DNA of 64,000 nt from Escherichia coli (GTDB taxonomy: Bacteria > Pseudomonadota > Gammaproteobacteria > Enterobacterales > Enterobacteriaceae), in assembly GCF_016026235.1 (NCBI RefSeq), contig NZ_CP065613.1; one strand, written 5' to 3'. This document shows positions 60,801-64,000 of this stretch, in pieces. The position numbers were made by a program. Position 1 is the stretch's first letter. Each line of letters starts with the position of its first letter.

Positions 60801-63800
60801 CGGTAATGTCTCCAGCACCTGCACGACCGCTTTTGCCCAGATGGCAAACTCCCGTCTGACATCACTGGCCGGAATGAGTTGTGCCGTTTCCTGTTCGAAC
60901 TTAAGACGCTCACGTTCAGACTGATACCAGGCTTTGCGCTCATGCGCGTCCATTTCGCCTTCTGCAACCGGCGGTGGTAATGCCAGAAATGCCGACACAA
61001 TATCAACCACCCGATAAAGCTTGAGGTTGCTTTCATGCCCCCTGCAACGGGTAGATTTTGCAGCCTTGCCGCAGCAGTCTGGCGATGTACACCTGACAGT
61101 GCCGCCAGTTGACTGATATTCAGCGTCAGATTTTTTAACTCTCGATCCATACCCGCTCCAGAATGTTTTAAACATGCATCTTGCGAACAACTTTAGGCAA
61201 ACGGTGTTAGTGATGAACAAAAAACAATCAAAACCGACAGCACAAAAATAAAACCACTGTAATATCAATACATTACAGTAGTGGTGATGACGAATGAAAT
61301 TTCAAAAACTAGCCTTTTTCCGCGCCGCTCCCGCCCCGTGGCAGGCCACCCCACCGGGAGGACCCGTCAGCCTGACAGCCATGACGAACGTCTGATACAG
61401 CGCCCTGCATGAATGACATCGGGATAATCCAGAAAGGAATAGCATCGTACCCACAAGAATCAGTGTAAGTGTCCTGTTTCTTCCACCCCCGCACAGGACT
61501 GGCGAGCATGAGGGACAAACCCGCGAACCATAAACGCGGTAAAAACCCGGTGTGCATCGTTTTTGATTATTCCCGCACACTCGCGCAGAAGGAGTTCCCC
61601 GTCGGGCTACGGTCATGGTTAATGCGGGAATACAGCGACGATACAGCGCATGATGTGTCAGGCCTGAATACCTTTATCCGTTAAAAGGGATATCAGTTAA
61701 GTTATCCCGTGTAGGGTATAAGCCATTATCAAGCCCACCCGTAGATGGACTTTGTAATGGATAGCTGTTGCTCAGTTCTCGTAATGCTTTGATTTTTCCG
61801 ATAACGCAGTTTTGCGTTTGCCATCAGCACGCGATATCGAGAGTCAACTGCAGTTGCTCGCGCCAGTACTCGACATTTGCTTCAATAACCGGCTTATCCC
61901 ATCGCCAGCGAGCCATCTCTCTTGCCCCATTGCTGGCTTTTGATTTCCGGTCATCGCGAATGCGACATGCTTGCTCATATTTCTGCTGCTCAGTCAGTTC
62001 ACCGCGAAGCAGACTATCAATGTGCAGGTCGCACCATACGGAGAATTTCGGATCGCACCATCTTGCAAAGGCAACTGATAACTTTGGATGCTGCCATGTT
62101 CCGCCGCCCCTGTCCTTTCGTGCCTTGCTTGTTTTTACATACCCGGAATCACGGGTATGTAGAATTTTCGATGGTTCACCTGAATAAACCTCATCCAGAG
62201 CTCTAACGTATTCGAGAGTTTCAGCGTTGGACAACCAGTGATCCAGACGCTTCCCGAAACGTTTTGCAATATCAGTGGCATTAATCCAGCCATCAGTATT
62301 GAAGCGGATAGGTTCGCCTTTGTAATTCAGTGGAACGATATTCATAGCGTCTTACCTTTTAGAAAGATGAGCCTGTTCGCACAGAAAAGCCGCCCCGAGA
62401 TGGTCGCCACCATATACGGCAGTTCTCAGGCTCAGCTTTCTGAAAGACTCGGGATTGTTACGCGCTGCGATGCGCGGTTTACTGCGGACATATAAAAGCC
62501 CCGCAAGTGCGAGGCTCATTAAATTGACTTTGTGATTTGCAAAAAAATTATTTCAGGCATTGCGTCCTGATGTATTCCTGCAGGTAGTTAACCTGCGCGG
62601 TTATCCTGTCGATTCCACTTCGGAGACGGTAATAATTGAGTTCAGCATCTGCTGTAAGTCCTGGGCTTTCTCCATAGCCCATGCTGCTGGCTCCGGTCGT
62701 TGACTTTGCACAGGTGGCGGCGACTTGCAGGCGCTTACGACCAGCAGAAACATCAGCACGGAGACTTTCGATAGTCGCGTTAGCATCAGCAAGCTCCTTT
62801 GTGTATCTGGCGTCGAGTTCTGCTACATCACGTTGACGCTTCTGCATATCAGAGATGATGGATGTGGCCTTATCGCGCTGCTCTTTGTAGGTAATGGCGT
62901 TATCACGGTAATGATTAACAGCCCATGACAGGCAGACGATGATGCAGATAACCAGAGCGGAGATAATCGCGGTGACTCTGCTCATTGATCTATCCCCCAA
63001 CAGGCTAATGCGCTTTCCTGGTCACGACGAATAACCTGTCCATAGCAGTTATTTGAACGTATGCGGCAATCGCGCCCAACATCTTTTATCCACCAGCGAA
63101 TCGCCTCGCATGCGCCCTTACGATCACCGGCATTCAGCCGCTTATAAAACGTCGACGGGAAACACTTACCGGGGCCAATGTTATAGGGGCAAAATGACGC
63201 TATACCCGCTTTTTGTGGTTCGGTCAGTGGTACTTTAATATTGCGCTCCACCCATGCCAGCGCCTTATCACGTTCAATGGCGTTAACCTGGTCGCATTTT
63301 TCCTTCGACAGTTTCATACCGGGAAAAACGGGTTTACCATCCACCATCGTGGCACCCCGACAGATGGTCCAGATGCCGGAACCATCGCGGTATGCCGTAG
63401 TGTGGTTACCTTCTTTTTCATCCAGAAACTGGTCGAGAATATCAGGCGCAGGCGCACCGATAGCAATCAGTGCCAGAACGGCAGCCGACAGGCCATATCT
63501 GATTTTTACGTTCATGGATATTTATCAGGATTTATCGGCTTCAAATCCCCGGATATGTTAAATCTTACCTCGCCAGTGATGGGCACTGGCGGGAGGAGGA
63601 TGTCAATCTGATAAACACAGAGGTGACTACGGATTACACAAATCTACCAAAACAAACTTTTGCTGATTTAATCGCACTCAGGCAAGCAGTCGTAGCTCTA
63701 ATCAACTTGTTGCCGGAGAAGGAAAAGGAATTAGTTAAAGCGCTTCTTAACAGAACTGCCGCCGATTTTTCATCATATCCACTGACAGATGACCTTGCGG

Positions 63801-64000
63801 ACCTTCCTGAATTAATTGCAGCGTCCGCCATTAAGCTTACTGAAGAGATTTACCCTCCTCAAAAATCTTCACAAAATTCCTGCGAGTAACTTCAATGCAA
63901 TAATCGTAAAACGCCGCAAACTGCTCATCGCGGCGTTTTTTTTCATCTTCAGAAGGAATCAGCACCGACAATTTTTTCTCCAGTTTTTCAATGGGCGATT

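What the first reader, a model, noticed from the sequence alone, without database searches (positions are those of the whole stretch)
63623..63946. Candidate antisense small gene with its own terminator between holin position and endolysin
An 88-codon plus-strand ORF (GTG start, weak SD) is followed within 25 bp by a strong stem-loop plus T-run terminator, in a region transcribed in the opposite direction by the late operon. Its 3' end overlaps the end of a minus-strand ORF entering from beyond the window, so one of the two may be spurious. The product matches no family I recognise; it could be a moron or antisense regulatory transcript.
Basis: seen in the sequence. Interest (0 to 1): 0.35.

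Follow-up and report, generated by a model that had tools for sequence, protein, structure and literature searches.

The report
Small antisense prophage cargo gene
The plus-strand ORF is a real but uncharacterised small phage gene (PHROG 2572) sitting backwards inside the lysis operon of an E. coli lambdoid prophage like a classic "moron", and the copy in this window has lost its normal ATG start codon.

Summary
ORF 63623-63889 (+), a hairpin plus T8 18 nt after its stop, and a 53-nt tail-to-tail overlap with a minus-strand ORF are all present.

Neither overlapping ORF is spurious. The minus ORF is an intact 176-aa DUF1327/YdfR long form lying between holin and lysozyme. The plus ORF belongs to PHROG 2572, function unknown, and RefSeq annotates it as a hypothetical protein in CFT073 and other strains.

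Homologs at 41-57% identity occur in a second E. coli lineage and in Salmonella Gifsy-like prophages. Each is convergent with a homologous partner, overlaps it by 53-59 nt, and is followed by the same hairpin. Between lineages dN/dS is about 0.3. The plus frame is the only one of six without stops, and it scores best.

The family start is SD GAGG + 5 nt + ATG.

A conserved element next to the lysozyme start (candidate -35/-10) precedes at least six unrelated small plus-strand ORF families. That marks a cargo slot.

The product is an acidic protein predicted as a three-helix bundle, with no informative fold match. Transcription is untested.

Verdict: an ordinary moron-type gene, of modest interest.

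The parts
63518..63538 (+). Conserved upstream element ATATTTATCAGGATTTATCGG. It contains two ATTTATC repeats 10 nt apart and abuts the lysozyme start codon.
   Evidence: The element is invariant between the E. coli and Salmonella versions of the module. It is also found upstream of unrelated plus-strand cargo ORFs.
63531..63559 (+). Candidate sigma-70 promoter: -35 TTTATC (63531-63536), 17-nt spacer, -10 TATGTT (63554-63559). The inferred TSS is near 63566.
   Evidence: The architecture is conserved while the spacer sequence differs between E. coli and Salmonella. Of 57 unique segments, 43 keep TATGTT or TATTGT at 17-18 nt. The hexamers are weak (3/6 + 4/6) and the consensus scan did not call it. 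This is inferred, not shown.
63571..63591 (+). Leader stem-loop CGCCAGTG-ATGGG-CACTGGCG in the presumed 5' UTR.
   Evidence: Fold result. It is conserved in E. coli type A and in the Stx-phage slots, but only partly in Salmonella. Its role is unknown.
63620..63625 (+). Shine-Dalgarno GAGGTG of the family's ATG start.
   Evidence: GAGG(T/C)G sits 5 nt upstream of ATG in 24 of 26 haplotypes.
63629..63631 (+). Ancestral start codon, ATG in relatives and ACG here (T63630C).
   Evidence: Haplotype alignment. PGAP does not call the gene in the 100%-identical genome but does call it in CFT073.
63623..63889 (+). Plus-strand ORF, 88 codons from the GTG. The family-equivalent CDS is 63629-63889 (86 codons). 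It belongs to PHROG 2572.
   Evidence: Supported.
63908..63943 (+). Hairpin (10-bp stem, 12-nt loop) plus T8. It is the putative intrinsic terminator of the plus gene, embedded in the codons KKRRDEQFAAF of the convergent gene.
   Evidence: Fold result. A hairpin is retained 18-26 nt after the stop codon in all three lineages. There is one compensatory G-C to A-U change, which is not statistically significant.
63837..64000 (-). 3' part of the DUF1327/YdfR long-form gene. It is 176 aa, intact, and continues to about 64367 outside the window. Its C-terminal module is the conserved convergent partner.
   Evidence: Supported (PHROG 2091, full length, E 1.6e-103).
63634..63831 (-). 65-aa minus-strand shadow ORF, judged spurious.
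   Evidence: It shares third codon positions with the plus frame. This frame carries 2-3 stops over the span of the plus ORF in every lineage, one of them inside the conserved core in Salmonella L059. Its conservation scores are lower than those of the plus frame.
62982..63515 (-). Lysozyme (rrrQ-like endolysin with an N-terminal hydrophobic segment), the downstream neighbour in the late operon.
   Evidence: Supported.

Best explanation
The feature is a moron-type cargo gene: a small independent transcription unit inserted backwards in the lysis cassette of a lambdoid prophage, between the holin-proximal DUF1327/YdfR gene and the lysozyme gene.

Its anatomy, in order along the plus strand:
- a conserved element next to the lysozyme start that carries a weak sigma-70-like -35/-10 pair (inferred);
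- a leader of about 60 nt with a stem-loop;
- SD GAGG, 5 nt, then ATG;
- an 86-codon ORF;
- a hairpin plus U8 that lies inside the coding sequence of the convergent late gene and most likely terminates or stabilises the plus transcript (inferred).

The product is a cytoplasmic, acidic (pI 4.6, net charge about -5.5) protein predicted as a three-helix bundle, in the uncharacterised family PHROG 2572. Its disordered C-terminal tail is encoded in the 53-nt overlap.

By analogy with other morons it is most likely expressed from the repressed prophage and acts through protein-protein binding, for example on an incoming phage or a host factor. Its target is unknown.

In this window the ATG is mutated to ACG. 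This allele therefore probably makes little or no protein, unless the GTG inside the SD is used.
For: **Real coding gene**
- Full-length match to PHROG 2572, E 1.2e-53.
- Annotated as a CDS in CFT073 and in phages.
- Homologs of 89-93 aa at 41-57% identity, found by exhaustive phmmer and in Salmonella.
- The ORF stays open with homologous start and stop positions at dS above 1, and dN/dS is 0.22-0.36 between lineages.
- On one shared nucleotide alignment the plus frame has the highest identity and mean BLOSUM score (1.8-2.4), with no stops in 9 sequences. Every other frame has at least 2 stops.
- GC by codon position is 53/37/36%.

**Moron features**
- The gene is absent from K-12 Qin, where ydfR abuts rrrQ.
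- Stx phages hold other cargo in the same slot.
- GC is 42% against 51-52% in the flanks.
- The hairpin plus T8 has dG -14.6 and z -3.5 and is retained in all lineages.
- The conserved upstream element with -35/-10 spacing travels with the gene to a different genomic slot in Salmonella. It also precedes at least six unrelated SD+ATG ORFs.

**Start-codon loss**
- Shown by the haplotype alignment and by the absence of a PGAP call in the identical genome.

**Fold**
- AlphaFold2 predicts three helices, mean pLDDT 70.
Against: - No transcription or translation data were available.
- The candidate promoter is weak (7 of 12 consensus positions) and was not found by the consensus scan.
- The upstream element could instead be conserved as the lysozyme's 5' leader.
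- The hairpin has an unusually long 12-nt loop. Its U-tract is good only in the E. coli type A lineage, and covariation support is anecdotal.
- Within-lineage dN/dS is high, 0.6-0.85.
- Polymorphism counts cannot separate the plus frame from the antisense frame that shares its third positions.
- ORF length alone is not significant.
- The fold searches gave no significant match, so the mode of action is a guess by analogy.
Confidence: 0.6

Rival explanations
1. Two-component cassette. The acidic plus-strand protein and the basic convergent partner work together. The partner is a 73-aa gene in Salmonella and the C-terminal module of DUF1327-long in E. coli. They could act as a protein pair, or through the antisense overlap of about 107 nt between their transcripts. 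Plus-strand transcription in the lysogen would then silence or time expression of the late gene or the lysis operon.
For: The pair is convergent, with a 53-59-nt coding overlap and a shared hairpin, in all three lineages. It moves as a unit between the S-R slot and the Rz-terminase slot. The partners are homologous (E 3e-5). Their charges are opposite, pI 4.6 against 9.1. There is a precedent for a prophage antisense RNA acting on late genes: STnc6030 of BTP1 (PMC7067206).
Against: The partner module occurs widely without the plus gene: 672 against 293 genomes, and in Stx phages. Other unrelated cargo genes occupy the same position behind the same upstream element. Co-occurrence may therefore only reflect use of the partner's hairpin as a terminator or a recombination boundary. 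The overlap encodes the least conserved, disordered tail of the plus protein.
Confidence: 0.15
2. The plus transcript is mainly a regulatory antisense RNA, and the ORF is incidental or only weakly translated.
For: The window allele has lost the ATG yet persists in several genomes. Within-lineage dN/dS is 0.6-0.85. The transcript would be complementary to the 3' end of a late gene.
Against: The ORF, its SD and its start position are conserved at dS above 1, with dN/dS about 0.3 and the best six-frame conservation. In-frame indels are the only length differences between lineages. Several unrelated ORFs with good SDs sit in the same place, which argues that the slot serves protein cargo.
Confidence: 0.1
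3. The plus ORF is spurious: either a chance ORF in a spacer, or the real coding frame is the 65-aa minus-strand ORF within the late operon.
For: ORF length is not significant on its own. The minus ORF shares third codon positions, so synonymous and nonsynonymous counts cannot discriminate between them. The codon-usage score is at the 3rd percentile of the window's long genes.
Against: The minus frame has 2-3 stops over the span of the plus ORF in every lineage, including one in its conserved core in Salmonella. Its start and length are inconsistent (59-115 aa; ATG or TTG; no SD), and its conservation scores are lower. The plus frame is open in all lineages and matches a PHROG profile end to end.
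Confidence: 0.04

Closest known systems
Lambda-type morons in the late region, e.g. bor (antisense, downstream of Rz) and lom. This is the moron concept of Hendrix and colleagues, cited from my own knowledge.
   Same: A small gene inserted between conserved late genes. It is oriented against the late operon, as bor is. It has its own SD and terminator-like hairpin, lower GC than its flanks, and is present in some relatives and absent in others. In Salmonella the module occupies the very Rz-terminase position where lambda carries bor.
   Different: The product is not a lipoprotein or an outer-membrane protein. It is a cytoplasmic, acidic helical protein of unknown function. The terminator lies inside the coding sequence of a convergent gene, and the two coding sequences overlap by 53-59 nt. 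The promoter is only inferred.
PHROG 2572 (uncharacterised phage protein family); RefSeq WP_001306174.1 'hypothetical protein'
   Same: Full-length profile match for the ATG-start relative, 1-86 of 86, E 1.2e-53. The window product differs from the CFT073 protein only in its first residues.
   Different: The window allele lacks the ATG start, and PGAP does not annotate it in the identical genome.
STnc6030, the antisense RNA in the late genes of Salmonella prophage BTP1 (PMC7067206)
   Same: A prophage transcript antisense to late genes and expressed in lysogens. It shows that such units can act at the RNA level, in that case in superinfection exclusion.
   Different: STnc6030 is non-coding and longer than 700 nt. 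Here a conserved ORF under purifying selection fills most of the unit, and only about 107 nt would be antisense to a late coding sequence.
Type I toxin-antitoxin pairs with convergent 3' overlap, e.g. txpA/RatA and bsrG/SR4. Cited from my own knowledge.
   Same: Convergent transcription units that overlap at their 3' ends around a shared hairpin, located in prophages.
   Different: Neither product is a small hydrophobic membrane peptide. Both partners are protein-coding and hydrophilic. The partner occurs without the plus gene.

Membership tests
PHROG 2572 | Significant full-length match to the family profile HMM | tested here: met
   E 1.2e-53, residues 1-86 against profile positions 1-86 of 86. 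The divergent homologs P0043 (E 8.5e-40) and P0046 (E 6.3e-24) hit the same profile.
Pfam DUF1823 (the label used in the PhiR12-type phage records) | Score above the Pfam gathering threshold of 25 bits | tested here: not met
   13.2-15.3 bits, E 0.02-0.11, covering about 30 residues only. The label in those records is not justified.
Moron (independent cargo transcription unit in a phage genome) | Present in some closely related phages and absent in others, between conserved genes | tested here: met
   K-12 Qin has ydfR abutting rrrQ. Stx phages hold other cargo in the slot. The whole module is in 293 of 5426 complete E. coli genomes.
Moron | Base composition different from the neighbouring phage genes | tested here: met
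   The ORF is 42% GC, against 51% for the lysozyme gene and 52% for the window.
Moron | Own factor-independent terminator | tested here: inconclusive
   A hairpin plus U8 follows the stop by 18 nt (dG -14.6, z -3.5). However, the loop is 12 nt, the consensus scanner did not call it, the U-tract is poor in the other two lineages, and it lies inside a coding sequence.
Moron | Own promoter | tested here: inconclusive
   TTTATC-17-TATGTT is conserved in position across lineages and across different cargo genes. It matches only 7 of 12 consensus positions and was missed by the scan.
Moron | Expressed from the repressed prophage | not testable with these tools
   No transcriptome data were accessible, and the literature searches found nothing on this family.
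Cis-antisense regulatory RNA | The transcript is non-coding | tested here: not met
   The ORF is under purifying selection and is the best-conserved of the six frames. There is no Rfam match.
Type I / type II toxin-antitoxin module | Type I: a small hydrophobic toxin peptide. Type II: a co-directional two-gene operon whose partners are obligately linked. | tested here: not met
   Both products are hydrophilic, with GRAVY -0.1 and -0.5. The genes are convergent. The partner module occurs without the plus gene. There are no significant PADLOC hits.

The most novel reading that the evidence does not exclude
The segment between the lysozyme start and the DUF1327 C-terminal hairpin may be a dedicated, promoter-equipped 'antisense cargo slot' of E. 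coli lambdoid prophages. It would exchange fast-evolving small acidic proteins, at least six unrelated families. PHROG 2572 together with its convergent basic partner would form a mobile two-gene unit whose plus-strand transcription also restrains leaky lysis-gene expression in lysogens, or excludes related phages.
Probability: 0.15. Interest if true: 0.5.

Novelty: new member of a known kind. Interest (0 to 1): 0.27.

Why it matters
The result settles an annotation ambiguity. Both overlapping ORFs are real, the 65-aa shadow ORF is not, and the window's allele is a start-codon mutant.

It also identifies a conserved element that marks a variable cargo slot inside the lysis cassette of many E. 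coli prophages. Small lysogen-expressed prophage proteins are a rich source of superinfection-exclusion, anti-defence and host-modulating factors. This slot, with PHROG 2572, 2411, 1853, 18136 and 21218, is a cheap place to screen for such functions.

By itself, one more uncharacterised moron is not surprising to a phage biologist.

Tried and rejected
- **Family and domain searches.** Pfam, NCBIfam and PADLOC scans of the product gave nothing above threshold. The DUF1823 label used in some phage records is sub-threshold.
- **Rfam.** The only hit in the region was a sub-threshold GcvB match, E 0.13, which I treat as noise driven by the terminator hairpin.
- **Fold search.** Foldseek of the AlphaFold2 model (pLDDT 70) against PDB and BFVD found no match with E below 0.5. 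The afdb50 library was not tried because a generic three-helix bundle would not be informative.
- **Polymorphism counts.** Synonymous versus nonsynonymous counts within lineages could not separate the plus frame from the antisense frame that shares its third positions: 4 against 5 discordant sites. I replaced this with the six-frame conservation and stop-codon test.
- **Hairpin covariation.** One compensatory pair was seen, but 217 of 500 shuffles did as well. It is reported as anecdotal only.
- **Homology to the commonest alternative cargo.** PHROG 2572 against PHROG 2411 by hhalign gave probability 1.7%, so homology was rejected.
- **TPR/CHAT hit.** A phmmer hit to a 975-aa TPR/CHAT-type protein was judged repeat or compositional similarity.
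- **Toxin-antitoxin reading.** It was considered and rejected; see the membership tests.
- **Literature.** Searches for DUF1327, WP_001306174, phrog_2572 and FIG00638659 found nothing relevant.
- **Not attempted.** A fused-chain co-fold of the two partners was not run, because the tool returns no interface confidence.
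Full report
**Context.** The last 1.5 kb of the window is the lysis cassette of an E. coli lambdoid prophage, read on the minus strand. It holds Rz with an embedded Rz1 (62548-63000) and a lysozyme with an N-terminal hydrophobic segment (62982-63515). Region 63400-64000 is 100% identical to the E. coli CFSAN029787 chromosome (locus L001). There the order is class II holin, a 'YdfR family' gene, a gap, then lysozyme and Rz, with the terminase genes further on. The holin therefore lies just outside the window.

**Checking the observation.**
- The ORF 63623-63889 (+) is 88 codons with a GTG start.
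- A stop-proximal hairpin has stems 63908-63917 and 63930-63939, a 12-nt loop and a T8 run ending at 63943. It begins 18 nt after the stop. Predicted dG is -14.6 kcal/mol, z = -3.5. The consensus scanner missed it because of the long loop.
- The ORF overlaps, by 53 nt (63837-63889), the 3' end of a minus-strand ORF that enters from beyond the window.
- In L001 that minus ORF is an intact 176-aa protein. It has an N-terminal DUF1327 domain and matches PHROG 2091 end to end. PGAP flags it as a truncated pseudogene, which looks like an annotation artefact.
- ORF length by itself is not beyond chance: 7.5% of dinucleotide shuffles give an ORF of at least 88 codons.

**Is the plus ORF a gene?** Several independent lines say yes.
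- The same ORF is annotated as a hypothetical protein (WP_001306174.1, 86 aa) in CFT073, APEC O1, S88 and others, and in phages 2H10, PhiR63_1 and the PhiR12 series.
- It matches PHROG 2572, function unknown, over its whole length at E 1.2e-53. The 'DUF1823' label in some phage records is sub-threshold.
- A word-indexed search found only E. coli relatives at 77% identity or more. An exhaustive phmmer search found 89-93-aa homologs at 41-57% identity, and a follow-up search found Salmonella enterica members.
- Their contexts define three lineages.
  - Type A is the window type. It sits in the E. coli slot between holin/DUF1327-long and lysozyme.
  - Type B occupies the same slot in other E. coli-like prophages, at 41% identity (L058, L069-L073).
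  - Type S is in Salmonella Gifsy-like prophages. There the gene sits after Rz and before the small terminase subunit, which is the position of bor in lambda.
- In all three lineages the ORF has a homologous start with an SD, and it is open for 86-93 codons.
- Between lineages dS is 1.0-2.1 and dN/dS is 0.22-0.36, apart from one pair at 0.57. Within lineages dN/dS is 0.6-0.85.

**Excluding the shadow ORF.** A minus-strand ORF (63634-63831, 65 aa) shares third codon positions with the plus frame, so synonymous and nonsynonymous counts cannot separate the two. I therefore compared all six frames on the same nucleotide alignments.
- The plus frame always has the highest amino-acid identity and mean BLOSUM62 score: 1.8-2.4, against 1.8 or less for the best alternative.
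- It has no stops in nine sequences. The best antisense frame has 2-3, including one in its conserved core in Salmonella L059.
- GC by codon position is 53/37/36%, which is coding-like.

I conclude that the plus ORF is the coding frame and the 65-aa minus ORF is a shadow.

**The window's allele.** In 24 of 26 haplotypes from 49 loci the gene starts MDYTNL..., at an ATG preceded by GAGG(T/C)G with 5-nt spacing. The window haplotype, and one derivative of it, carries ACG at 63629-63631.
- This explains why PGAP annotates the gene in CFT073 but not in the identical CFSAN029787 genome.
- The allele is real rather than a sequencing error. It appears in at least five complete genomes that are 100% identical over 63400-64000, and in nine IMG/VR loci.
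- It is probably poorly translated. That step is inference.

**The convergent partner and the hairpin.** In every lineage the gene is convergent with, and overlaps by 53-59 nt, a minus-strand ORF.
- In types A and B that ORF is the C-terminal module of DUF1327-long. In Salmonella it is a free-standing 73-aa gene.
- The modules are homologous (KRRDE...RNF.K, E 3e-5).
- The overlap encodes the least conserved, low-confidence C-terminal tail of the plus protein.
- A hairpin sits 18-26 nt after the plus stop in all three lineages. It is built from the partner's RR...AA codons (CGCCGC/GCGGCG). In type B it is rebuilt as CGCCACC/GGTGGCG, changing the residues to HH...VA.
- That is one compensatory G-C to A-U pair plus three G-U wobbles readable on the plus strand. 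It is not statistically significant.
- Only type A has a canonical U8 tract.
- The partner module, hairpin included, is more widespread than the plus gene: 672 against 293 of 5426 genomes. It also occurs in Stx phages without the plus gene.

The simplest reading is that the plus gene uses the partner's hairpin as its terminator or 3' stabiliser. A functional partnership is possible but not required.

**Upstream element and cargo slot.** The 21 nt ATATTTATCAGGATTTATCGG (63518-63538) abut the lysozyme start codon. They are invariant between the E. coli and Salmonella modules, which makes them better conserved than the ORF.
- The element contains TTTATC. A spacer of 17 nt follows, whose sequence differs between lineages, and then TATGTT in E. 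coli or TATTGT in Salmonella. This is a weak sigma-70-like arrangement that the consensus scan did not call.
- In Salmonella the element is not next to a lysozyme gene. It travels with the plus gene.
- In E. coli Stx and other prophages the same element precedes unrelated plus-strand ORFs, each with its own SD and ATG: PHROG 2411 (90 aa, the commonest), PHROG 1853, PHROG 18136, PHROG 21218 and an unannotated 210-aa ORF.
- PHROG 2572 and PHROG 2411 show no profile similarity.
- Of 57 unique segments, 43 keep the TA...T hexamer at 17-18 nt.

I read this as a promoter-bearing boundary of a variable antisense cargo slot. Promoter activity is inferred, not shown. The element could also owe part of its conservation to serving as the lysozyme's SD-less leader.

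**The product.** It is 86 aa, pI 4.6, net charge about -5.5, with no hydrophobic segment. AlphaFold2 on a 10-sequence alignment predicts three helices (8-25, 30-48, 56-74) with mean pLDDT 70. Foldseek found nothing significant in PDB or BFVD. There is no PADLOC, Pfam or NCBIfam assignment. A phmmer hit to eight TPR-like repeats of a large TPR/CHAT-type protein is probably only helical-hairpin resemblance.

**Comparison with known systems.**
- Architecture and distribution match the moron concept: a presence/absence polymorphism (absent in K-12 Qin), lower GC, its own SD, a terminator-like hairpin and a candidate promoter. In Salmonella it even occupies the bor position.
- It is not a non-coding antisense RNA of the STnc6030 kind (PMC7067206). 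Even so, about 107 nt of its transcript would pair with the late mRNA.
- It does not fit type I or type II toxin-antitoxin definitions.
- No paper in the searchable library mentions the family.

**Verdict.** The interpretation as a moron-like antisense small gene is largely right, with four corrections.
- Both overlapping ORFs are real.
- The family is already catalogued as PHROG 2572.
- The true start is an ATG that this window has lost.
- The 'terminator' lies inside the partner's coding sequence.

The function is unknown. My best guess is a lysogen-expressed small acidic binding protein. The finding is ordinary for a lambdoid prophage. The conserved cargo slot and the conserved convergent overlap are its only mildly novel aspects.

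Noticed in passing
window 63518-63538; loci L074-L153: A 21-nt element abuts the lysozyme start codon. About 100-130 nt downstream of it, on the strand antisense to the late operon, lie at least six unrelated SD+ATG small ORF families: PHROG 2411, 1853, 2572, 18136, 21218 and a 210-aa ORF. This is a variable cargo slot behind a conserved promoter-like boundary.
   Followed up: partly
L006 1278-1910 (+) versus 1659-2147 (-), Stx2a phage LC567818: An unannotated 210-aa plus-strand ORF with a good SD (AGGAG) overlaps the annotated 162-aa minus-strand 'hypothetical protein' by about 250 nt. Only residues 2-70 of the minus ORF match any PHROG, so one of the two annotations is probably wrong.
   Followed up: partly
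L001 4438-4968 (window 63837 to beyond 64000): PGAP marks the DUF1327/YdfR gene as a pseudogene 'missing C-terminus'. The ORF is intact at 176 aa and matches PHROG 2091 end to end. The long forms carry a C-terminal module that K-12 YdfR (103 aa) lacks.
   Followed up: yes
L052 about 1237-2500: An IS3-family insertion of about 1.26 kb, encoding OrfA and OrfB transposase, splits the PHROG 2572 ORF after about codon 33 in one IMG/VR prophage. OrfA looks like that of IS600, an identification made from memory, not by search.
   Followed up: partly
window 63490-63515 (-): The lysozyme gene has no recognisable Shine-Dalgarno sequence. The 25 nt upstream of its ATG are the AT-rich conserved element. 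In K-12 Qin the same gene is instead translationally coupled to ydfR through an overlapping stop and start.
   Followed up: no
window 63571-63608 (+): A strong 8-10-bp stem-loop lies in the presumed 5' leader of the plus gene. It is followed by GGAGGAGG and a 3-codon mini-ORF (ATG TCA ATC TGA, 63600-63611). The mini-ORF is kept in E. coli types but not in Salmonella. Its significance is unknown.
   Followed up: no
P0041: The 86-aa protein gives a summed phmmer E of 1.6e-10 against eight TPR-like repeats of a 975-aa TPR/CHAT-type protein. This is probably helical-repeat or compositional similarity, not homology.
   Followed up: no
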